DNA of 41,227 bases, taken from the IMG/VR virus record IMGVR_UViG_2541047931_000011, positions 1 through 41,227 of that record; one strand, 5' to 3'. Shown here piece by piece: positions 28,300-37,846 of the stretch. This DNA comes from a virus (lineage: Duplodnaviria; Heunggongvirae; Uroviricota; Caudoviricetes). A model generated the notes under the pieces. That model saw nothing but the letters and a program-made list of their open reading frames with translations. It did no database searches and was not told where the DNA came from. The translations under genes were made by a program, and so were the position numbers. Each line of letters opens with the position of its first letter. Position 1 is the first letter of the stretch.

Positions 28300-28739
28300 G
28301 CAGCCCGATCTCCCCATCGCGCTTTCCATTCGAGAGCCAGTCGCGCTTCGTCTGACCACTTAACGCCACGCTCTGTACCGAATGCCTGTATAAGCTCTAA
28401 TAGCTCCGCAAATTCGCTTACACGCATCCTGCTGGTTGACTGGCCTATTACAACAAAGCCATTACCGGCAAGGTTAGGAACAACGTCCTGCTGCTTTAAT
28501 GCTGCGGTAAACACACACTTCCAGCTTTCTGCATCCAGCCAGCGACCATGCCATTCAACCTGACGAGAGACGTCACCTAAGCAGGCCCATAGCTTCCTGT
28601 TTTGGTCTAAGCTGCGGTTGCGTTCCTGAATGGTTACTACGATTGGTTTGGTTGGGTCTGGAAGGATTTGCTGGATAGCTTGAATGGCGTTCTGCTGATG
28701 GATGGGGCTTCTTAGTTCAAACGTTAGTTTCCTCACCAT
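28296..28739 (-). CDS. ninB: Recombination protein NinB
   Basis: 147-aa protein matching lambda NinB from memory (...IVVTIQERNRSLDQNRKLWACLGDVSRQVEWHGRWLDAESWKCVFTAALKQQDVVPNL...). Confidence 0.85.
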   Translation of the reverse strand: MVRKLTFELRSPIHQQNAIQAIQQILPDPTKPIVVTIQERNRSLDQNRKLWACLGDVSRQVEWHGRWLDAESWKCVFTAALKQQDVVPNLAGNGFVVIGQSTSRMRVSEFAELLELIQAFGTERGVKWSDEARLALEWKARWGDRAA

Positions 28740-28881
28740 TTACGCTCCTGTAATCGTCAAGTGCAGCTGCAATAGTCCCTATCGGGTCATGGTCTTGCCC
28801 GATAATCTCATTTACGTTTTCATCTTCTTCCACACCGAAAAAGAATCGCAGGGCTAACATGATTTCTTCGTATGCGCTCAT
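28717..28881 (-). CDS. Small hypothetical protein (54 aa)
   Basis: ORF not in the supplied track (MSAYEEIMLALRFFFGVEEDENVNEIIGQDHDPIGTIAAALDDYRSV...), SD GGAG upstream, overlaps the NinB start. Confidence 0.3.
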   Translation of the reverse strand: MSAYEEIMLALRFFFGVEEDENVNEIIGQDHDPIGTIAAALDDYRSVNGEETNV

Positions 28882-28883
28882 AC

Positions 28884-29126
28884 TCACTCCTTCACTTTGA
28901 CTCCAGCGTCGCTTAGCTCTTTTCTCATGTCATCTCTGCGGTGGTAAGTCCCGCCATAAACGTCTATTCCATGAGATGGCCATTTAATTTCGATAGATGC
29001 GCGAGACATAACCCATGACTGCCAGGCAATCATCTTGATGGCCTGAACGTGAAGTTCTTCGCTGTTGTTAATAGACTCGAACTCTTCACCAAACCACTCC
29101 AAAAACTGTTTTCTTGATTCGTTCAT
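28884..29126 (-). CDS. Hypothetical protein (80 aa)
   Basis: ORF in the ren/nin-left position, tightly packed. Confidence 0.45.
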   Translation of the reverse strand: MNESRKQFLEWFGEEFESINNSEELHVQAIKMIAWQSWVMSRASIEIKWPSHGIDVYGGTYHRRDDMRKELSDAGVKVKE

Positions 29127-29137
29127 ATCAATCCCCG

Positions 29138-29338
29138 TTATGACAGGTTAATTTTCACCCAACCCTTCCCACGCACATTTGCAACAAGCCCTTTCTTTCT
29201 CAGGTATTGCATACGGCGATCGATGGTTTCGATATACATTCCATTGCTCCGCCATTTAAGCCAGATATCAAAAACAGGTGTTGGTCTTTCACTCAGGATT
29301 GAAAGAATGTTTTGATCTAATTTTTCGTACTTGCTCAC
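29138..29338 (-). CDS. Small winged-helix-like protein (possibly Ren-like)
   Basis: 66-aa basic ORF in the position that ren occupies in lambda. Confidence 0.4.
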   Translation of the reverse strand: MSKYEKLDQNILSILSERPTPVFDIWLKWRSNGMYIETIDRRMQYLRKKGLVANVRGKGWVKINLS

Positions 29339-29661
29339 AAATACCCTCTCTCACTTAATCGCGCCCACGCTTCGTTAAACTCTTCTCGGGTTGCGCCGGA
29401 TTTTCTTTCTTCAAACATCATGCATTCGCTGATGTCTCCCCATGACTTTGGTCGCTTTTCAGCGAACAGATCATCCCATTCGAATACCCAGCGGCCTGAT
29501 TTTCGGTAGTGGTAAATGATCAGCCATGTTGTGCTGTTCGCTGGATACCCATAGAGAACTTCGACTTTTTGATCACGGTCTTTATGCTTTTTCAGCAGGA
29601 TAAAGCCAGCAACCAGCGAAGCTCCGGCAAGAATGATGATTGGAATTTGCCAGTCAGCCAC
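29335..29661 (-). CDS. Membrane-anchored hypothetical protein (108 aa)
   Basis: N-terminal hydrophobic helix (IPIIILAGASLVAGFILL) followed by a soluble domain; first gene after the tR2-like terminator. Confidence 0.45.
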   Translation of the reverse strand: MADWQIPIIILAGASLVAGFILLKKHKDRDQKVEVLYGYPANSTTWLIIYHYRKSGRWVFEWDDLFAEKRPKSWGDISECMMFEERKSGATREEFNEAWARLSERGYL

Positions 29662-29675
29662 ACTTCCCTCTCCCC

Positions 29676-29708
29676 CAAATAAAAAGGCCTGCGATTACCA
29701 GCAGGCCT
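29676..29708 (-). terminator. Rho-independent terminator downstream of the helicase gene (tR2-like)
   Basis: Minus-strand CAGGCCTGC-tggtaatc-GCAGGCCT followed by TTTTTATTT. Confidence 0.55.
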
Positions 29709-29733
29709 GTTATTAGCTCAGTGATGTAGATGG

Positions 29734-31110
29734 TCATACGTCAGCCCCTTGTGCATATCGCCTGCCACGTGCAGCGGGTGCATTTGATGTTGTGCAAATC
29801 TGTCTGGCTTCATCCTGGTCACATGCAACAAAGTGTCCGTTACAGAACCGCTGGTAAACCGTACCAAGCGAGCCAAAACGGTTTTTCGTCACAATGATTT
29901 CAGCAAATGGCGCGGCGCTACTGTTCTCGTCATATACCGCTTCCCGATAGAGCATGATGATTGAGTCTGCGTCCTGCTCAATGCTTCCTGAATCACGCAA
30001 ATCTGCGTTTGTCGGGCGTTTGTTTGGTCGCTTCTCAACATCGCGCGAAAGCTGACTCAGGGAGATAACCGGTGTTTTCAGGTCTTTCGCCATCGCCTTC
30101 AGGCTTCCGGAGATGTGAGCAATTGCGAGGTCGTTGCGGTCTGCTTTCGGCTTCTCAATCAGGCCAAGATAATCCGCCATGATGAGTGAGAGGTTTGGAT
30201 TTTCCTGTTTGTGCCGTTCTGCGATTGAGCGTATTTCTTCGACCGATAACCGCGAGGCATCGACTACCCATACATCCAAATCTGCAAGCTGACTCATGCC
30301 GTTAGCAACACGCGCCCAGCCTTCGTCATCCATCGATGCAGGATTTCGCAGTACGCTAACCGACATCCTCCCGGCGTTGGCAATGCTTCGCTCTGCAATC
30401 TGCAATGCGCTCATTTCCATCGAGAAAATCAACACTCCTCGCCGGACGTCAGAACCAGGAATAACGCGGCTTGCAACGCCTTCGGCAATCTTCAGCGCCA
30501 GCTCGGTTTTCCCCATACCAGGACGAGCAGCGATTATCACCAGGTCTTCTGCGTTCATCCCTCCGGTGATGGCGTCAAGTTCTTCTATTCCGGTCTTCAG
30601 GGTATCTGACTCTTCTCCGTTCCTCAGACGCCTGTCAAGCGTGTCGGTGTAGTCAGTGATGATTTTCCCTAAGCGTACCGGTTTAACCTCGTCACGGGGC
30701 TTTCTGATGGCTGAGAGACGCTTTACAAGTTCATCCATCGCCTGACTCGATGCGTCGATGGTTCCGCTTTGGATTGGTTCACGCATTTCATCCATGATTT
30801 CCAGCACCAGACGGCGGTGATAGTTATCCGCGACCATTCCGGCATATCCCTTCAGGTTTGCGGCACTCGGGCAGTTTTTGCTGGTCATCAGGATTGACGT
30901 GAAATGCTCCTCTCCGCACTCCTCGGCAACCATCAGCGCGTCGATTAGGTTTCTGTTTCGCGCCTGCTTGCGGATAACCTCGAAGGCTTTCCGGTAGAGC
31001 GGAATTGAAAACGCTTCCGGCTCCAGCGTTGCCAGAACGTCGCTGGCGGTTGGTGTTAATCCACCAATCAGCAGGCCACCGATAACGCTCGCTTCGATAT
31101 CCTGTCTCAT
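29734..31110 (-). CDS. Replicative DNA helicase, DnaB family
   Basis: 458-aa protein with Walker A (ARPGMGKT) and DnaB C-terminal domain pattern; ATGA overlap with the O-like gene stop. Confidence 0.85.
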
Positions 31111-32054
31111 GCAATCCCCCTGTCTGCAAACTTCCCTTCCCGTACTCCCGTTAACGAATCTTCCCTCAGCAGGTAATCAAAATCAGCCGTCCAGCCCGTG
31201 TCGTTGTCTCCGAAGTAAAACGGCTTGGCCTGATGCACAAACGCCCTGACATACGCTCTGAAACCGTCCACATTTGGCGTTTTCAGTTGCGGGATGATTT
31301 TCTTCAGGCGGCGTTTGCGTTTCTCGTTGACCGCAACAGCGTGTGGAAGTCTGTCACCGACTTCGGTGTTGTAGGCGTTCAGGAAGGATTCGTAGTCGAT
31401 TCGTTCTGCCTTGCGACGTTCAGGTTTAACCTGCCCATCGCCTCCCCCATTGGGGGGTAGGGGGGTATTATTTATATTCTTGTTAATACCTTCTTGTTCA
31501 TGATGTGCGGTTGTTTGTGCGGCTTCATGTGCGCTTTCATGTGCGGAACGTACGCTGAAAGCCGCGCCATTACTGGCTTCATCATGTGCGGCATCATGTG
31601 CGGTTGTTTGTGCGGCTTCATGTGCGGGTGAATTGTCCATTTTTTGAGCATATTCATGGTAATTTGTGATGGTGATCACACGACCTTTTTGCTTCTCCCC
31701 ATCAATAGAGATCATCCCCTCTTTCACAAAAACCTGAAGCATCCGCTCAACCTGATCACGGCTTGCCGGCTTGCCATGTCTGTCGCATAACTGAAGACCT
31801 AAATCAGCTGCTGTCACAACCAGTTGACCGGGTTGCAGATGCCATTCATGACCTTTGAAATTCGATTTGTATGGCTTTCTGGCGGCATTCAGGAGAAGGT
31901 TTTCCCACAGGGTGCGAAGATAAACATCTTTCGCCCATGACTGTTTCAGAATGCTCCGGTACAACGGAATGTAACCAGTTTTCTGGTTCTCCATCCTGTT
32001 GCTCCTGCGCTCGTGTGCGGCGCTGAAATCGTAGATTTTTGCTGTATTGCTCAT
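31107..32054 (-). CDS. Replication initiator, O-like
   Basis: 315-aa ORF upstream of the helicase; central [14 protein letters not shown] repeats encoded by the iteron array. Confidence 0.7.
31500..31630. repeat. Iteron array (about 8 copies of core TGTGCGG at roughly 11-12 bp spacing, two blocks of four) = putative ori
   Basis: Copies at about 31504, 31516, 31528 (variant), 31540, 31586, 31597, 31609, 31621; adjacent AT-rich tract at about 31465-31495; lies inside the O-like gene as ori-lambda lies inside O. Confidence 0.6.
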
Positions 32055-32056
32055 AA

Positions 32057-32329
32057 CTACCTGCCTTGACGAAAGACCTTAAGAACATCGTTAAACTGAC
32101 TTACGGATATGTCTTCTTTGAGCAGCTTTTCCAGAAATGCGTTTGGAATGAACGTATATCCCTCCTCTTTTGGTAGAGACGGGAGCAACGCCCTCGCCTC
32201 AGCCTTCAGAAGCTCAGTTCTGGCAACTTTCACAAAAGAGATTTGAGTTCTTTCATCAATGGAACGAAGGAAGCGCAAACGCTTAGCTTCTTTGTGTGTA
32301 TCAGGTGGATTAAAGCCTTTGTTTCGCAT
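32057..32329 (-). CDS. Hypothetical protein (90 aa) between cII and the O-like gene
   Basis: Start MRNKGFNPPDTHKEAKRLRF... with SD GAGGT; the track ORF extends upstream in a frame overlapping cII, which I discount. Confidence 0.4.
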   Translation of the reverse strand: MRNKGFNPPDTHKEAKRLRFLRSIDERTQISFVKVARTELLKAEARALLPSLPKEEGYTFIPNAFLEKLLKEDISVSQFNDVLKVFRQGR

Positions 32330-32406
32330 ATAATTACCTCGCTGGATGTTGTTAAAATTCCATTTGTATTTGATCAGAACGCTCGGTTGCCGCCGGGCGT
32401 TTTTTA
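32330..32406 (+). ncRNA. oop: oop antisense RNA (overlaps the 3' end of cII)
   Basis: Plus-strand 3' end GTTCAGAACGCTCGGTTGCCGCCGGGCGTTTTTTATT matches the lambda oop terminator as I recall it; 5' end inferred from the 77-nt lambda length. Confidence 0.55.
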
Positions 32407-32645
32407 TTGGTGAGAATCGAAGCAACTTGTCGTGCCAATCGGGCCATGTCGTCGTCAACGACACCCCATTCAAGAACAGCAAGCAGCATTGAGAACTTTG
32501 GAATCCAGTCCCTCTTCCACCTGCTGATCTGCGACTTATCAACTCCCACAGCTTCCGCTGTCTTCTCAGTTCCAAGCATTGCGATTTTGTTAAGCAACGC
32601 ACTCTCGATTCTTAGAGCCTCGTTGCGTTTGTTTGCACGAACCAT
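32352..32645 (-). CDS. cII: Transcriptional activator cII (lambda)
   Basis: 97-aa protein matching lambda cII from memory (MVRANKRNEALRIESALLNKIAMLGTEKTAEAVGVDKSQISRWKRDWIPKF...); the track ORF has a 20-codon spurious N-terminal extension. Confidence 0.9.
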   Translation of the reverse strand: MVRANKRNEALRIESALLNKIAMLGTEKTAEAVGVDKSQISRWKRDWIPKFSMLLAVLEWGVVDDDMARLARQVASILTNKKRPAATERSDQIQMEF

Positions 32646-32724
32646 ATGTAAGTATTTCCTTAGATAACAATTGATTGAATGTATGCAAATAAATGCATAC
32701 ACCATAGGTGTGGTTTAATTTGAT

Positions 32725-32756
32725 GCCCTTTTTCAGGGCTGGGATGTGTAAGAGCG
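32725..32756 (-). promoter_or_regulatory. nutR (boxA CGCTCTTAC and boxB GCCCTGAAAAAGGGC)
   Basis: Minus-strand boxB hairpin at 32725-32739 and boxA at 32748-32756, between cro and cII; flanking sequence matches the lambda nutR/tR1 region. Confidence 0.75.
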
Positions 32757-32764
32757 GGAATGTC

Positions 32765-34117
<1,353 letters not shown>

Positions 34118-34167
34118 TCCCCACCTCAATCTCAGTAACCCAAAAACAAACTATTTTCCGTTTAAAA

Positions 34168-34235
34168 ACAATGGAGTTTGTTTTTTGCACCTCCATTTAC
34201 AATATTTCTTGTTTACAACATACAATCTTTCTTGT
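34168..34235. promoter_or_regulatory. Left operator region: three 434-type operators, with pL
   Basis: acaatggagtttgt 34168-34181, acaatatttcttgt 34199-34212, acaatctttcttgt 34222-34235, upstream of nutL and N. Confidence 0.7.
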
Positions 34236-34269
34236 AATTTTAAGCCATCAGCAGGACGCACTAACCACC

Positions 34270-34300
34270 ATGAAGGTGATGCTCTTAAAAATTTAGCCCT
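34270..34300 (+). promoter_or_regulatory. nutL (boxA-like TGCTCTTAA and boxB GCCCTGAAGAAGGGC)
   Basis: boxB hairpin at 34286-34300 and boxA-like element at 34270-34278, about 120 nt upstream of N. Confidence 0.75.
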
Positions 34301-34420
34301 GAAGAAGGGCAGCATTCAAAGCAGAAGGCTTTGAGTAGCGCGAAATGCAGCTGCAAGACAGCAACCGTGGAGATAAGCATCACGGCGCGTTACTCAAAGC
34401 TAACTGACAGGAGAATCCAG

Positions 34421-34747
34421 ATGGATGCACAAACACGCCGCCGCGAACGTCGCGCAGATAAACAGGCTCAATGGAAAGCAGCAAATCCCCTGTTGGTTGG
34501 GGTAAGCGCAAAGCCAGTTAACCGCCCTATTCTCTCGCTGAATCGCAAACCGAAATCACGAGTAGAAAGCGCACTGAATCCAATAGACCTTACAGTGCTG
34601 GCTGAATACCACGAACAGATTGAAAGCAACCTGCAACGTATTGAGCGCAAGAATCAGCGCACATGGTACAGCAAGCCACGCAGTGAAATGGGGGTGACTT
34701 GTGTTGGTCGCCAGAAAATGAAATTAGGCAGCAAACCACTTATTTGA
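34421..34747 (+). CDS. N: Antitermination protein N (lambda)
   Basis: Protein begins MDAQTRRRERRADKQAQWKAANPLLVGVSAKPVNRPILSLNRKPKSRVESALNPIDLTVLAEYH, matching lambda N including the arginine-rich boxB-binding motif; the track ORF has a 30-codon upstream extension. Confidence 0.9.
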   Translation: MDAQTRRRERRADKQAQWKAANPLLVGVSAKPVNRPILSLNRKPKSRVESALNPIDLTVLAEYHEQIESNLQRIERKNQRTWYSKPRSEMGVTCVGRQKMKLGSKPLI

Positions 34748-34825
34748 GGTGATATATGGAAGAAGAATTTGAAGAGTTCGAAGAGCATCCGCAGGATGTG
34801 ATGGAACAATACCAGGACTATCCGT

Positions 34826-35026
34826 ATGACTACGACTATTGATAAGAATCAATGGTGTGGACAATTCAAACGATGCAATGGATGCAAGCTGCAATCGGAA
34901 TGCATGGTTAAGCCTGAAGAAATGTTTCCTGTAATGGAAGATGGGAAATATGTCGATAAATGGGCAATACGAACGACGGCAATGATTGCCAGAGAACTTG
35001 GTAAACAGAATAACAAGGCTGCCTGA
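34826..35026 (+). CDS. ral: Restriction alleviation protein Ral-like
   Basis: 66-aa ORF immediately downstream of N; sequence recalled as lambda Ral (not verified); SD AGGA upstream. Confidence 0.55.
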   Translation: MTTTIDKNQWCGQFKRCNGCKLQSECMVKPEEMFPVMEDGKYVDKWAIRTTAMIARELGKQNNKAA

Positions 35027-35091
35027 TGGTGGCCTTTATTTTTGGCATAAACAACAGAATAAACACTGCACTGAATTATTTGAGGTGAGAT

Positions 35092-35562
35092 ATGACAAAA
35101 TCATGGAGCGTACCTTTTCCTGAATCAGAAACTGAACATGATGGAATGCCTGTTTTCTGGAGATTCCAAGCGACAGTTGAAGAAGATGGAATCAAAATAT
35201 TCGCACTTCAATATATAGCTTTTCATCAGACAGAGCATTATGCATGGTTGGTTCCTGCGCATTGGATTGTTGATTTTAAACCAGCACCAAATCAGTGGTT
35301 ACGGGAATGGAAACAAAGGAGAAATAGATATGCAATTAAGAAAGTAGCAAAAAATGCAGAAAGATCTTTTGCATTCCCAACGAAGAAACTTGCCATTGAG
35401 AGTTTATTGCGCCGGAAGAAATACCGTTTAATGAGAATCAAACAAGATTTGGCTGTTGTATCAACTCTTGTTGATGGGATGAAGAATATTGATACATCAA
35501 CACCAGATATTGAATATAACTTTGGACACAACCAAGAAACAGAAAATTGGGTATTTTATTAG
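35092..35562 (+). CDS. Hypothetical cargo protein (156 aa) in the pL operon
   Basis: Strong SD GAGGTGAG; AT-rich coding sequence; no TM segment or recognised motif; sits where lambda carries superinfection-exclusion/early accessory genes. Confidence 0.5.
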   Translation: MTKSWSVPFPESETEHDGMPVFWRFQATVEEDGIKIFALQYIAFHQTEHYAWLVPAHWIVDFKPAPNQWLREWKQRRNRYAIKKVAKNAERSFAFPTKKLAIESLLRRKKYRLMRIKQDLAVVSTLVDGMKNIDTSTPDIEYNFGHNQETENWVFY

Positions 35563-35666
35563 TACGAATAAGCACTGTGTATTCATTCCCACGAGTGAAT
35601 ACACGGAGCAATGTCGCTCGTAACTAAACAGGAGCCGACTTGTTCTGATTATTGGAAATCTTCTTT

Positions 35667-35693
35667 GCCCTCCAGTGTGAGGGCGATTTTTTT
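35667..35693 (+). terminator. Rho-independent terminator in the early-left operon
   Basis: GCCCTC-cagtgt-GAGGGC followed by GATTTTTTT. Confidence 0.5.
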
Positions 35694-35705
35694 GACGGAG
35701 GAAAT

Positions 35706-36017
35706 ATGAAATTACGTGTCTGGCATATCCCGCAAGTACCTATGAAACCGTTCATTGTAGAAGTGGCAAGTGTTGAAGAGGGTGTTCGCCTGATGGATGC
35801 ACTGGCTGATTATGACGCCTTTCAGTATGACAACAACATCAAGCCTGACTACTGCAATGCTAACGGCCTTGAGATGTGGGATGAGAGCCTTACCGATGAA
35901 GATTTATCAGAAATGGGGCTTACTGATCGCTGGGTGGATTGGTACAGCGAATGCCAATGTTACGACGACCCACGTAAATATCTCGAAAGCCTGAAAGAAG
36001 AAACATCAGCCGCCTAA
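35706..36017 (+). CDS. Hypothetical acidic protein (103 aa)
   Basis: ATG at 35706 with SD GGAGGAA; the track ORF starts 18 codons upstream, across the terminator. Confidence 0.5.
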   Translation: MKLRVWHIPQVPMKPFIVEVASVEEGVRLMDALADYDAFQYDNNIKPDYCNANGLEMWDESLTDEDLSEMGLTDRWVDWYSECQCYDDPRKYLESLKEETSAA

Positions 36018-36092
36018 GCGCGGCTTTACCGCATACCAATAACGCTTCACTCGAGGCGTTTTCGTTATGCAATCAAATATAAGGAGTTACCC

Positions 36093-36227
36093 ATGATGCA
36101 CTTTCAGCTCGCGGGTAGCGGCGTCATGTCCGCTTTCTACCCGCACGAATCTGAATTATCACGCCGAGTTAAACAATTAATCAGAGCAGCAAAGAAACAA
36201 CTGGAGGCGTTATGCGCAATGAAATAG
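36093..36227 (+). CDS. cIII: cIII-like protein (44 aa)
   Basis: ORF not in the supplied track; SD AAGGAG at 6-nt spacing; MMHFQLAGSGV...ESELSRRVKQLIR resembles lambda cIII MQYAIAGWPV...ESLLERITRKLRD. Confidence 0.45.
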   Translation: MMHFQLAGSGVMSAFYPHESELSRRVKQLIRAAKKQLEALCAMK

Positions 36228-36364
36228 CCATCAATCACCAGATGCTTCGTGCTGCACAGAACAAAGCAGTAATAGCCAGATTTATTGGTGATTCCAAAAT
36301 GTGGCTTGAAGCAAATAAAGCGATGAAATCAGCGATCAACATTCCGTGGTATCGCAGGAAATGA
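36212..36364 (+). CDS. kil: Kil-like host-killing protein (50 aa)
   Basis: ORF not in the supplied track; SD GGAGG; ...AVIARFIGDSKMWLEANKAMK resembles lambda Kil ...ATFIGDEKMFREAVDAYK. Confidence 0.45.
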   Translation: MRNEIAINHQMLRAAQNKAVIARFIGDSKMWLEANKAMKSAINIPWYRRK

Positions 36365-36618
36365 GTTTTACAGATAACTGGTCAGACGAAGAATTCATTC
36401 GTCAGATGAAAGATTTAATCGGTAACGAAGGAGATATTCATGTCACTTGCAACCACAGTGAAGGAGAGCAAGTTACAGAGACGCATGTACACGCAGAAAG
36501 CTCTCTGGTATCGCCATAATGGCGACCGCGAAGGAATGCGGGTATGCCTTAATTTGTCCCGAGTCGAAGTATTAAATCAGCGTTATTTCCTTGGGCCATG
36601 TCCATTCTGAGGTGAATT

Positions 36619-37326
36619 ATGGATTTGAATAAATTCGATGAGCCATTCAGCCCTGAAGATATCGAATGGCGAATACAGCAAAGCGGTAAAACACGCGATG
36701 GAAAGGTGTGGGCTATGGTGCTGGCTTATGTCACGAACAGGGCAATCATGAAACGCCTGGACGATGTTTGCGGCAAAGCAGGATGGCGCAATGAATACCG
36801 CGATATTCCCAACAACGGCGGAGTTGAATGCGGCATATCAATCAAGATTGATTCCGAATGGGTAACCAAATGGGATGCTGCTGAAAACACGCAGGTAGAA
36901 GCCGTCAAAGGTGGTCGTTCAGGTGCAATGAAGCGTGCTGCCGTTCAGTGGGGAATCGGTCGGTATCTGTATAACCTTGAGGAAGGTTTCGCACAAACAT
37001 CTCTCGATAAAAAGCAGGGGTGGCACAGGGCAAAACTGAAGGATGGAACAGGATTTTACTGGCTCCCTCCATCGCTGCCGGGCTGGGCAATGCCAGTATC
37101 AGATAACAAACCATCACCAGAAAATACCAACCAGAAATCTCCATCGGTTGACTGCGAACAAATCCTGAAAGACTTCAGCGATTATGCTTCAACAGAAACT
37201 GACAAGAAAAAACTCATCGAGCGTTATCAGCGTGACTGGCAATTAATGGCTGGCAACGAGGAGGCGCAGGCTAAATGCGTTCAGGTAATGAACATCAGAG
37301 TTAACGAACTAAAACAGGCGGCATAA
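36619..37326 (+). CDS. Rad52/Sak-like single-strand annealing protein
   Basis: 235-aa ORF immediately upstream of ssb in the position of lambda bet; central conserved-looking block (KGGRSGAMKRAAVQWGIGRYLY). Confidence 0.55.
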   Translation: MDLNKFDEPFSPEDIEWRIQQSGKTRDGKVWAMVLAYVTNRAIMKRLDDVCGKAGWRNEYRDIPNNGGVECGISIKIDSEWVTKWDAAENTQVEAVKGGRSGAMKRAAVQWGIGRYLYNLEEGFAQTSLDKKQGWHRAKLKDGTGFYWLPPSLPGWAMPVSDNKPSPENTNQKSPSVDCEQILKDFSDYASTETDKKKLIERYQRDWQLMAGNEEAQAKCVQVMNIRVNELKQAA

Positions 37327-37833
37327 ATGGCAAGCAGAGGCGTAAATAAGGTGATTATCCTTGGTCGGGTAGGACAAGACCCGGAAGTTCGATACTCACC
37401 ATCAGGAACAGCGTTCGCTAACCTGACAATAGCCACGTCAGAACAATGGCGAGATAAAAATACTGGCGAGCAAAAGGAATTGACTGAATGGCATCGTGTT
37501 GCTGTATCCGGGAAACTGGCTGAGGTCGTGGGGCAGTATGTGAAAAAAGGTGATCAGATTTATTTCGAGGGAATGCTGAGAACCAGAAAGTGGAAAGACC
37601 AGTCAGGGCAAGACCGTTACACAACCGAGGTTCATGTCGGAATTAATGGCGTGATGCAAATGCTTGGCGGCATTGGCGACAGCAAACAACAAGCAGCCAG
37701 CAGGCAATCACAGAAGCCACAGCAGCAATCATCACCAGCACAACACAACGAACCTCCGATGGATTTTGACGACGATATACCCTTTGCACCAGTAACTCTC
37801 CCCTTCCCTCGTCACGCTATTCACGCAATTTAA
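37327..37833 (+). CDS. ssb: Single-stranded DNA-binding protein with C-terminal extension
   Basis: N-terminal OB-fold region typical of E. coli-type SSB, Gln/Pro-rich linker, acidic tip DFDDDIPF followed by 15 extra residues before the stop. Confidence 0.85.
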
Positions 37834-37846
37834 TCAGGAGAAAATC

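What the first reader, a model, noticed from the sequence alone, without database searches (positions are those of the whole stretch)
37327..37833. Phage SSB whose conserved acidic tip DDDIPF is followed by a 15-residue extension
In E. coli-type SSB the C-terminal ...DDDIPF must be the free terminus to recruit partner proteins. Here the ORF reads through into [15 protein letters not shown] before stopping. Either the stop was lost (a decaying gene) or this SSB has altered partner specificity, for example favouring phage recombination proteins.
Basis: partly seen in the sequence, partly recalled or inferred. Interest (0 to 1): 0.4.

Follow-up and report, generated by a model that had tools for sequence, protein, structure and literature searches.

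The report
Capped SSB tail in mobile elements
This phage copy of the bacterial single-stranded-DNA-binding protein carries a conserved 15-residue cap over the tail tip that normally has to be the free end to recruit host enzymes. The cap is intact, under selection and widespread in phages and plasmids, but what it does is not known.

Summary
Window 37327-37833 encodes a 168-aa SSB ending ...[24 protein letters not shown].

It is not decay or a sequencing error:
- The same junction occurs in viable phages (HK75, mEp235, mEpX2, epsilon34, ECP1) and in 297 of 5,426 complete E. coli genomes.
- 111 of the 120 closest protein clusters carry a cap of exactly 15 residues, with conservative variation.
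- Related 14-15-aa caps occur in Proteus, Providencia, Vibrio, Pseudoalteromonas and Chromobacterium elements and on 87 IncN-type conjugative plasmids.
- pN/pS of the cap is 0.28-0.35.
- Cap anatomy: [AS]-P-φ-[GT]-L-[PQ]-[FYH]-P followed by a non-polar end.

The tip/cap boundary is also the insertion site of an ssb-specific endonuclease gene (PHROG 2340). In Sf6 and Huey this gene gives SSB a free ...DIPF end, and its own product reads on into the displaced cap. The window holds the empty allele.

By analogy with E. coli SSB+Gly, which loses χ binding, the cap should block canonical tip docking. The cap's own function is unresolved: partner docking, a degron, or a removable pro-peptide. No constant neighbouring gene was found, so a phage-recombinase-specific role is not supported. 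I found no description of this cap in the searchable literature.

The parts
37327..37833 (+). ssb gene, 168 codons plus stop. This is the endonuclease-free ('empty site') allele.
   Evidence: ORF. Pfam SSB 1.6e-36. PHROG 44 1.6e-66. 99.8% DNA identity to HK75 ssb.
37327..37671 (+). OB-fold ssDNA-binding and tetramerisation domain (aa 1-115).
   Evidence: phmmer against E. coli SSB structures: 1eyg 2e-53, 1eqq 6.6e-58. AlphaFold2 block pLDDT 73-90 for residues 11-110, 55 for residues 1-10 (residues 1-5 below 50) and 52 for 111-120, with OB-type strands.
37672..37752 (+). Q/P/S-rich disordered linker (aa 116-142).
   Evidence: pLDDT <50 for residues 115-154. Highly variable among homologues. Rough pN/pS 0.59.
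37753..37785 (+). Canonical SSB tip [11 protein letters not shown] (aa 143-153), here internal rather than terminal.
   Evidence: Identical to the E. coli SSB C-terminus in the alignment. Nearly invariant in 112 capped homologues. pN/pS 0.085.
37786..37830 (+). 15-residue cap [15 protein letters not shown] (aa 154-168).
   Evidence: Length-invariant and conservatively varying in 111/120 clusters. 60 distinct versions share [AS]-P-phi-[GT]-L-[PQ]-[FYH]-P plus a non-polar end. pN/pS 0.28-0.35. Weakly predicted beta-hairpin 156-159/164-167, pLDDT about 48-56.
37758..37788 (+). Tract that differs between endonuclease-free and endonuclease-bearing alleles. It is the presumed homing/recognition site. 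The insertion point lies after the Phe153 codon, and homology resumes at 37789.
   Evidence: Window versus phage Huey: ssb nt 1-431 identical, 10 mismatches in nt 432-461, a 438-nt insert, then 6 mismatches in the next 350 nt. None of 69 endonuclease-bearing loci has the canonical DFDDDIPF tip.
36619..37326 (+). Rad52/22-family single-strand annealing protein gene. Its TAA stop overlaps the ssb ATG start by one base (TAATG).
   Evidence: Pfam Rad52_Rad22 4.9e-26.
37847..38140 (+). abc2 (anti-RecBCD) gene downstream of ssb.
   Evidence: Pfam Anti-RecBCD_p2 4.9e-62.

Best explanation
This is an intact bacterial-type SSB of a mobile-element lineage. Its canonical acidic tip (…DFDDDIPF) is permanently followed by a conserved, selected 14-15-residue cap: AP-φ-[GT]-L-[PQ]-aromatic-P plus a non-polar end.

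Shown here:
- The cap is translated sequence under purifying selection.
- It is old and widespread in phages, prophages and IncN-type conjugative plasmids of Gamma- and Betaproteobacteria.
- It is independent of the neighbouring genes.
- The codon boundary between tip and cap is the insertion site of an ssb-specific endonuclease gene. The window carries the uninvaded allele.
- Invaded alleles have a recoded tip with its own stop, so SSB ends in a free …DIPF. There the endonuclease ORF runs into the displaced cap.

Inferred:
- Phe153 has no free alpha-carboxylate, so this SSB cannot dock in the canonical way into the tip-binding pockets of host partners (chi, ExoI, RecO, RecQ, PriA and others).
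- It would therefore coat the element's ssDNA without recruiting the host SSB interactome.
- The cap itself would supply a sequence-specific function that is probably host-directed or acts in cis. This function is unidentified.
For: - ORF and cap.
- SSB family and OB fold. The family models end at IPF.
- Identical cap on ssb bodies that are only 72-89% identical in DNA, in viable phages.
- 297 of 5,426 E. coli genomes carry the capped junction.
- 90 of 119 IMG/VR loci holding the cap DNA have it fused to ssb.
- 111 of 120 nearest protein clusters have a cap of exactly 15 aa, from Klebsiella, Citrobacter, Enterobacter, Salmonella, Kluyvera and others.
- 14-15-aa caps also occur in Proteus, Providencia, Moellerella, Tatumella, Vibrio, Pseudoalteromonas, Oceanisphaera, Rheinheimera and Chromobacterium.
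- IncN plasmid pTR4 and 86 other conjugative plasmids carry it.
- pN/pS: cap 0.28 and 0.35, tip 0.085.
- Invariant Pro2 and Leu5 are written with several codons each.
- Cap anatomy from 60 distinct versions.
- The downstream genes differ (abc2, exonuclease, RdgC-like, a convergent SprT-family gene), so no shared overlapping DNA element explains the conservation.
- SSB+Gly loses chi binding (PMC3045619).
- Endonuclease-plus/minus allele pair.
- Relatives of the endonuclease in Vibrio and Pectobacterium phages and in diverged IMG/VR loci sit right after an SSB tip but lack the cap tail.
- In locus L207 the endonuclease gene follows the stop of a capped ssb.
- The cap segment is disordered in the confident endonuclease model (pLDDT 92 overall, <50 for residues 150-159).
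Against: - No experiment bears on this protein. Loss of host-partner binding is extrapolated from one E. coli mutant and one partner.
- The tip is very strongly conserved although internal (pN/pS 0.085). That is unexpected if the tip were simply disabled, and it fits removal of the cap or a composite tip+cap motif equally well.
- Phages with an invaded allele (Sf6, Huey, IME10, N7) have an uncapped SSB and are viable, so the cap is dispensable for growth in the laboratory.
- The cap is as conserved when fused to the endonuclease (pN/pS 0.19). This may only reflect repeated homing into selected alleles.
- The AlphaFold2 hairpin in the cap is of low confidence.
- No partner was identified.
Confidence: 0.6

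Rival explanations
1. The cap is mainly a C-terminal instability tag. Its non-polar end would deliver the element's SSB to a cytoplasmic AAA+ protease (ClpXP, ClpAP, FtsH or Lon), so that a potentially harmful SSB, which can probably mix into host tetramers, is short-lived after the early burst of expression.
For: In 60 distinct caps the last residue is I/M/L/V in 57. Only 1 has a charged residue among the last five and only 3 have any acidic residue. From my own knowledge, not tested here: non-polar C-terminal pentapeptides destabilise proteins in E. coli (Parsell, Silber and Sauer 1990), and ClpX recognises C-terminal tags such as ssrA (…YALAA) and MuA (…RRKKAI). Many lambdoid early proteins are unstable by design. 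The same tail on the endonuclease would also make sense as a tag limiting a toxic nuclease.
Against: A degron alone does not explain the invariant AP-φ-[GT]-L-x-aromatic-P core or the fixed length, unless an adaptor reads the core. There is no sequence match to a defined tag, and no stability data exist.
Confidence: 0.2
2. The cap is a pro-peptide. It is cut off after Phe153 in the cell, releasing a canonical free …DDDIPF tip, for instance only at a certain time or on ssDNA.
For: This would explain why the internal tip is conserved as strongly as in host SSB (pN/pS 0.085; near-invariant [11 protein letters not shown]). IncN plasmids have a SprT-family metalloprotease gene next to ssb.
Against: No protease is encoded near ssb in the phage loci. 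I know of no cytoplasmic endopeptidase that cuts Phe|Ala-Pro. The cap core would then have to be a protease recognition site shared by very different hosts.
Confidence: 0.1
3. The cap is an adaptor for the element's own recombination protein. The cognate annealase would bind tip+cap rather than the free tip.
For: There is precedent. The last six residues of HK620 SSB are needed for Sak4 to bind SSB-coated ssDNA and for stimulation of recombineering (PMC5928155). In the window ssb is translationally coupled to a Rad52-family annealase gene.
Against: The same cap is found next to Rad52-like, Erf, RecT and Sak4-like genes, and in the IncN leading region no annealase gene lay within the stretch examined around ssb. 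No gene family other than ssb is shared by more than 8 of 37 loci.
Confidence: 0.07
4. The extension is a neutral scar: either a lost stop codon, or the remnant left when an endonuclease gene was deleted from an Sf6-like arrangement, fusing ssb to the endonuclease's tail. A sequencing error is a further variant of this.
For: The same 14 residues end the endonuclease of Sf6 and Huey. Decaying endonuclease genes and deletion chimeras do exist (phiKp_30; P0131, P0134, P0144 and P0173).
Against: - Endonuclease relatives in other settings end soon after '…PIY' and lack the tail.
- The tail is disordered and outside the fold in the endonuclease model.
- Caps occur in lineages and plasmids without this endonuclease.
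- Real deletion products have heterogeneous junctions, whereas the tip|cap junction is uniform.
- pN/pS is 0.28-0.35 and the length is invariant.
- The junction is identical in hundreds of independent assemblies.
Confidence: 0.03

Closest known systems
E. coli SSB (PF00436 / TIGR00621) and its engineered variant SSB+Gly
   Same: OB domain highly similar to E. coli SSB (phmmer E 6.6e-58 to 1eqq), a disordered linker, and an identical [11 protein letters not shown] tip. SSB+Gly shows that a C-terminal addition abolishes detectable chi binding (PMC3045619).
   Different: Here the addition is natural, 15 residues long, conserved and selected. The protein is encoded by mobile elements, not by the housekeeping gene. 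The family models end at IPF.
Phage HK620 SSB and its partner Sak4
   Same: A phage SSB in the same genomic module (annealase - ssb - abc2). Its C-terminal residues mediate a specific interaction with a recombination protein (PMC5928155).
   Different: HK620 SSB is a distant homologue that ends in a free NDYPPF. It has no cap after the tip, and its partner is the neighbouring gene product.
Leading-region SSBs of conjugative plasmids (F-like pED208)
   Same: An element-encoded SSB expressed early. Deletion of pED208 ssb raises SOS induction in recipients (PMC8406263), so element SSBs manage the host response to foreign ssDNA. IncN plasmids carry the capped type in their leading region.
   Different: I did not check whether the F-type SSB is capped. 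No functional data exist for a capped plasmid SSB.
Free-standing HNH homing endonuclease genes of phages, and mobile ORFs that replace the 3' end of their target gene (for example the atp6 insertion of Allomyces macrogynus). Both comparisons are from my own knowledge.
   Same: Presence/absence polymorphism at one exact site between otherwise near-identical genomes, with a short recoded tract beside the insert. The insert brings its own copy of the end of the target gene, so the target stays functional, and it displaces the original 3' end downstream.
Acidic C-terminal tails of T7 gp2.5 and T4 gp32 (own knowledge)
   Same: Phage ssDNA-binding proteins that use an acidic C-terminal tail, ending in Phe in gp2.5, to recruit replication and recombination partners.
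   Different: Those tails are free termini of unrelated or distantly related proteins. No conserved cap follows them.

Membership tests
Bacterial-type homotetrameric SSB (PF00436, TIGR00621) | N-terminal OB-fold ssDNA-binding domain | tested here: met
   Pfam SSB 1.6e-36 over residues 6-104. TIGR00621 4.5e-49. E. coli SSB structures 1eyg and 1eqq at 2e-53 and 6.6e-58. AlphaFold2 OB strands, block pLDDT 73-90 for residues 11-110.
Bacterial-type homotetrameric SSB (PF00436, TIGR00621) | Disordered linker followed by an acidic tip …D-F-D-D-D-I-P-F | tested here: met
   Residues 115-154 have pLDDT <50. The tip [11 protein letters not shown] is at residues 143-153.
Bacterial-type homotetrameric SSB (PF00436, TIGR00621) | The tip Phe is the C-terminal residue, with the free alpha-carboxylate used by partner pockets | tested here: not met
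   15 further codons follow Phe153 before the stop. This holds in 111/120 nearest clusters.
Bacterial-type homotetrameric SSB (PF00436, TIGR00621) | Tetramer formation and ssDNA binding | not testable with these tools
   Inferred only from similarity to E. coli SSB across the OB domain.
Free-standing homing endonuclease locus (empty versus occupied alleles) | Insert present or absent at one exact site between near-identical genomes, with flanking recoding | tested here: met
   Window versus Huey: 0 mismatches in ssb nt 1-431, 10 in nt 432-461, a 438-nt insert, then 6 in the next 350 nt. The window has the empty allele.
Free-standing homing endonuclease locus (empty versus occupied alleles) | The insert encodes a nuclease of a known homing family (HNH / ββα-Me) | tested here: inconclusive
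Free-standing homing endonuclease locus (empty versus occupied alleles) | Consistent association with one target gene across unrelated genomes | tested here: met
   In 29 of 29 sampled loci an ORF ending in an SSB-type tip, or in two cases (L206, L207) a truncated or capped version of one, stops upstream of or overlapping the endonuclease start, mostly within 9-19 nt. The same holds in Vibrio and Pectobacterium phages.
Free-standing homing endonuclease locus (empty versus occupied alleles) | The enzyme cleaves the empty allele and the gene spreads by repair | not testable with these tools
   No biochemical or co-infection data are available.
C-terminal degradation tag (ssrA-like / non-polar C-terminus) | Non-polar last residues with a free carboxylate | tested here: met
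   57/60 caps end in I/M/L/V, and 1/60 has a charged residue in the last five.
C-terminal degradation tag (ssrA-like / non-polar C-terminus) | Protease-dependent instability conferred by the tail | not testable with these tools
   No expression or stability data.
Beta-clamp-binding motif (QL[SD]LF / QLxLx[LF]) - considered only | Gln at position 1, with hydrophobic residues at positions 2, 4 and 5 or 6 | tested here: not met
   The cap core P-[VIL]-[GT]-L-[PQ]-[FY] has the hydrophobic pattern, but position 1 is Pro in 60/60 caps. It is therefore not filed as a clamp-binding motif.

The most novel reading that the evidence does not exclude
Capped SSBs would be a distinct, undescribed class of mobile-element SSB. 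The cap would turn the central hub of host genome maintenance into a 'stealth coat'. Such an SSB covers the element's ssDNA, and may poison mixed tetramers with host SSB. It would deny ExoI, RecQ/RecJ and RecO-RecA access, which protects recombination and conjugation intermediates and mutes SOS. The conserved AP-φ-G/T-L-x-aromatic-P peptide would recruit one specific conserved host factor, or time the protein's destruction. In parallel, a dedicated endonuclease family would use the near-universal tip codons as its homing site and un-cap the SSB whenever it invades.
Probability: 0.3. Interest if true: 0.75.

Novelty: new variant of a known kind. Interest (0 to 1): 0.58.

Why it matters
The free …DDDIPF carboxyl end of SSB is treated as the universal handle by which more than a dozen replication, repair and recombination enzymes find ssDNA. 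A large natural family of SSBs has that handle covered by a conserved peptide. The family is present in about 5% of complete E. coli genomes, in model phages (HK75, epsilon34) and in IncN resistance plasmids. This suggests that mobile elements deliberately change what their ssDNA recruits. The idea is directly testable with peptides, cap-deletion phages and cap-deletion plasmids.

It bears on three practical points:
- How plasmids and phages avoid SOS induction and host nucleases.
- The portability of recombineering systems, which depends on annealase-SSB tail compatibility.
- Annotation, since these proteins are currently all labelled plain 'ssb'.

Nature also supplies the control. Phages invaded by the endonuclease gene (Sf6, Huey) have an otherwise near-identical but uncapped SSB.

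Tried and rejected
- **Recoding to give a free IPF end.** There is no stop directly after the Phe codon in any frame. The -1 frame reads …YPLHQ* and that stop is not conserved across cap variants. Rejected.
- **Conservation due to an overlapping DNA element or the downstream gene's signals.** Homology ends exactly at the stop codon where the next gene differs (epsilon34, phiKp_30). The downstream genes vary and synonymous sites vary. Rejected.
- **Constant neighbouring partner gene.** Clustering of same-strand ORFs around 37 capped loci found nothing shared by more than 8 loci apart from ssb.
- **Relaxed constraint on the cap when it is fused to the endonuclease.** Not seen (pN/pS 0.19). The expected support for 'the function is tied to SSB' did not appear.
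- **Structure.** AlphaFold2 gives only a low-confidence hairpin for the cap.
- **Literature.** Full-text searches for the cap sequences (PVTLPF, DIPFAP, APIGLQY and others) and for SSB plus extension plus phage found no description. Most subscription-journal papers are outside the library.
- **Clamp-binding motif.** The hydrophobic pattern fits, but the defining Gln is replaced by an invariant Pro.
- **Short 'extensions' after DDIPF-AP** in a Pseudomonas (9 aa) and two alphaproteobacterial genomes (5-6 aa). I did not count these as caps.

Full report
**Observation**

Window 37327-37833 (+) is an ATG-to-TAA ORF of 168 codons.
- Residues 6-104 match Pfam SSB (1.6e-36).
- The protein aligns with E. 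coli SSB structures from residue 1 to residue 153 (1eqq, 6.6e-58), where the E. coli chain ends.
- The TIGR00621 model also ends at residue 153.
- The sequence then continues for 15 codons, [15 protein letters not shown] (37786-37830), before the stop.
- ssb lies between a Rad52/22-family annealase gene (36619-37326, stop and start overlapping as TAATG) and abc2 (37847-38140).
- The window as a whole is a mosaic temperate phage. It has myovirus-type tail genes on the left and a lambdoid early region on the right.

**Not an error and not decay**
- The gene is 99.4-99.8% identical in DNA to ssb of the plaque-forming phages HK75, mEp235 and mEpX2.
- It is 89% identical to ssb of Salmonella phages epsilon34 and g341c, and 72-75% identical to ECP1, HZ41 and CP-1639. 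All of those translated (HK75, epsilon34, ECP1, CP-1639) end in the same 15 residues.
- A 101-nt probe across the junction finds 406 of 5,426 complete E. coli genomes. In 297 of them the match spans tip and cap.
- Among the 120 best 90%-identity clusters in the 5.8-billion-protein collection, 111 carry an extension of exactly 15 residues. The variation is conservative, for example [60 protein letters not shown] and SPVGLQYGKHRVYAL. Hosts include Klebsiella, Citrobacter, Enterobacter, Salmonella, Kluyvera, Pluralibacter and Phytobacter.

**Breadth**

A degenerate scan of one genome per GTDB species for DDIPF-[AS]-P gave 51 SSB-like ORFs.
- 15-residue caps occur in Enterobacteriaceae, Morganellaceae (Proteus, Providencia, Moellerella: APIGLPYPRHAIYVI) and Tatumella.
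- 14-residue caps occur in Vibrio, Pseudoalteromonas, Oceanisphaera, Rheinheimera, Idiomarina and Chromobacterium (APIGLQYPALLLAM, APLGLQHPSLMNCV, APMGLECRRMLHCI).
- A protein search of PLSDB showed the cap on IncN conjugative plasmids, for example pTR4: …[25 protein letters not shown]. There ssb lies among antirestriction genes. It also showed the cap on a 374-kb Vibrio maritimus plasmid.
- 87 conjugative plasmids share the IncN version.
- From 60 distinct caps the anatomy is [AS]-P-[VIL]-[GT]-L-[PQ]-[FYH]-P followed by six or seven non-polar residues. Pro2 and Leu5 are invariant. The last residue is I/M/L/V in 57 of 60. A charged residue occurs in the last five positions in 1 of 60.

**Selection**
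- On 54 unique 3' ends, pairwise Nei-Gojobori counts give pN/pS 0.28 for the cap and 0.085 for the 11-codon tip. The 20 linker codens before the tip give about 0.59, a rough figure because that stretch was not gap-aligned.
- On the set found without using the cap sequence, the cap gives 0.35 with pS 0.71.
- Invariant residues are written with three or four different codons.
- Homology ends at the stop codon where the next gene differs (epsilon34 and phiKp_30 versus abc2-type loci), and the downstream genes vary widely. An overlapping DNA signal is therefore not the cause.
- The cap is translated and constrained. The 'common and neutral' escape is not met.

**The boundary is a homing site**

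In Sf6, IME10, N7, CurroJimenez and Huey the match to the window's ssb is split in two.
- There SSB ends …MNFDD(S)[DE]IPF*.
- An endonuclease gene follows within 9-16 nt.
- That gene's product ends …[23 protein letters not shown]. This is the same 14 residues written in the same DNA.

Window versus Huey is a clean pair:
- ssb nt 1-431 are identical.
- There are 10 mismatches in nt 432-461. These are mostly synonymous, plus D146N, D150E and GCA changed to TAA.
- A 438-nt insert follows.
- The next 350 nt have 6 mismatches.

The enzyme belongs to PHROG 2340 (2.6e-47).
- It has invariant Cys pairs and an HH-x-DY…H-x3-H motif.
- It folds confidently in AlphaFold2 (pLDDT 92).
- Pfam, NCBIfam, the PDB sequence search and Foldseek are silent.

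The family is tied to ssb.
- In 29 of 29 sampled IMG/VR loci an ORF ending in an SSB-type tip stops upstream of or overlapping the endonuclease start, mostly within 9-19 nt. Two loci differ. In L206 the tip is truncated and ends 132 nt upstream. In L207 the SSB is capped.
- The same arrangement is seen in a Vibrio podovirus and in a 145-kb Pectobacterium phage, where the upstream 405-aa protein ends VDFDLDIPF.
- None of 69 occupied loci keeps the canonical DFDDDIPF. They read DDSDIPF, DDEIPF or DSDIPF.
- I read this as donor-flank co-conversion and/or immunity of the occupied allele to its own enzyme. That reading is inference.

**Which came first**

The cap belongs to ssb, not to the endonuclease.
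- Diverged family members end shortly after '…PIY' (…PIYV*, …PIYGEAA*, …PSYPEDLEAA*, …NNDPVY*) and lack the tail.
- The tail is disordered in the endonuclease model (pLDDT <50 for residues 150-159).
- In L207 the endonuclease gene starts at the stop codon of a capped ssb (…DSIPFAYVGLQYANHTIHCI*).
- Caps occur in lineages and plasmids where this arrangement was not seen.
- Genuine deletion products have irregular junctions, for example P0134, which is SSB residues 1-103 joined to the enzyme at a shared IVG. The tip|cap junction is uniform.

So the window's gene is the ancestral, uninvaded form. Invasion gives the phage an uncapped SSB and hands the cap to the endonuclease ORF. The tail stays conserved there (pN/pS 0.19). 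This may simply reflect repeated homing into alleles that had evolved under selection, so it cannot be used either way.

**Mechanism**

What follows from established knowledge is this. SSB partners hold the last Phe in a hydrophobic pocket and its alpha-carboxylate with a basic residue. In E. coli, adding a single Gly abolishes detectable chi binding and allows complementation only under slow growth (PMC3045619).

If the cap stays on, this SSB cannot use the canonical docking mode. That is the most secure functional inference, and it makes the protein a coat that does not recruit the host interactome.
- The OB domain is highly similar to that of E. coli SSB. From my own knowledge of SSB variants co-expressed in E. 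coli, mixed tetramers with host SSB are therefore plausible. I did not test this.
- Element-encoded SSBs do modulate host responses. Deleting ssb from pED208 raises SOS induction in recipients (PMC8406263).
- Phage SSB tails can be partner-specific (HK620 SSB and Sak4, PMC5928155).

The cap's own sequence-specific role is open.
- No gene family other than ssb is shared by more than 8 of 37 capped loci. The annealases are Rad52-like, Erf, RecT or Sak4-like, and the stretch of IncN plasmid examined held none. A host-encoded or cis target is therefore more likely than the neighbouring recombinase.
- The non-polar end fits a C-terminal degron (own knowledge: Parsell et al. 1990; ClpX tags).
- The very strong conservation of the internal tip fits either removal of the cap or a composite tip+cap motif.
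- AlphaFold2 suggests a small hairpin (156-159 and 164-167), but at pLDDT about 50.
- The core resembles the hydrophobic pattern of clamp-binding hexapeptides but lacks their Gln. I do not file it there.

**Comparison and novelty**

The protein is a member of the bacterial SSB family in fold, linker and tip. It fails the one feature on which the family's hub function depends, a terminal Phe. I found no paper in the searchable library that contains the cap sequence or describes a capped SSB tip. Most subscription-journal papers are not covered, so prior description cannot be excluded. I rate the cap a new variant of a known kind. As a by-product, the ssb-tip-specific endonuclease family is a new member of the free-standing homing endonuclease kind. 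It also resembles mobile ORFs that bring a replacement 3' end for their target gene (own knowledge).

**Verdict**
- Decay is refuted.
- Altered partner usage is plausible but unproven.
- The phage-recombinase version of that idea is not supported.
- Confidence that the cap is a functional, selected module is about 0.9.
- Confidence that it works by blocking canonical tip docking while adding a specific function is about 0.6.

Noticed in passing
L010 1372-1920 (Vibrio phage 252E42.2; about 200 'Vibrio phage D…' records match the endonuclease at the same identity, but their ssb ends were not examined): The ssb reads …DFDDD-RS-stop, and the next 12 nt in the same frame encode DIPF-stop. A 9-nt insert carrying a stop codon splits the tip, directly upstream of a PHROG-2340 endonuclease gene. 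This SSB would lack IPF altogether.
   Followed up: partly
L007 1501-2531 (Salmonella phage ES18): A different endonuclease (gp47, Pfam HNH_3 8.6e-13) follows ssb. The 30-nt tip tract ATGAACTTCGACGATGAGATCCCATTTTAA is identical to that of Huey, which carries the unrelated PHROG-2340 enzyme. Two endonuclease families therefore share one recoded tip. No cap remnant is left in ES18.
   Followed up: partly
L207 about 2040-3030 (IMG/VR 3300028186_000124): A capped ssb (…DSIPFAYVGLQYANHTIHCI*) is followed by the endonuclease gene, which starts at its stop codon. Here the insertion is after the cap rather than between tip and cap.
   Followed up: partly
L008 1350-1555 (Klebsiella phage phiKp_30); proteins P0131, P0134, P0144, P0173: These are decaying endonuclease genes. 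phiKp_30 has a remnant with a large internal deletion that still ends …[14 protein letters not shown]. The listed proteins are SSB-endonuclease and endonuclease-exonuclease chimeras with irregular junctions.
   Followed up: partly
L006 1461-1973 (CP-1639) and several clusters: Capped, endonuclease-free ssb alleles whose tip is of the 'occupied' type ([16 protein letters not shown]…). They could be recombinants, or alleles resistant to the endonuclease.
   Followed up: no
L328 2005-3353 (IncN plasmid pTR4): The capped ssb is convergent with a SprT-family zinc metalloprotease gene and sits among antirestriction genes (ardA/ardR-type) in the leading region.
   Followed up: no
L233 5191-6730 (Rheinheimera MAG): Tandem duplication of the ssb 3' end (tip plus cap) together with the downstream 129-aa gene. 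The second copy of the tip plus cap sits on a 58-aa remnant ORF.
   Followed up: no
L009 769-2426 (Pectobacterium phage DU_PP_I): A 405-aa protein of unknown function (PHROG 4477, no Pfam hit) ends in an SSB-like tip VDFDLDIPF and is followed by the same endonuclease family. It may be an unrecognised ssDNA-binding protein of Vequintavirinae.
   Followed up: no
window 1-16300 versus 23600-41227: The window is a mosaic temperate phage. The left part has myovirus-type baseplate and tail genes (93% identity to vB_EcoM-611R5, 81% to Salmonella SEN34). The right part is a lambdoid early region (about 96% identity to HK446, HK544, Sf101 and Huey).
   Followed up: partly
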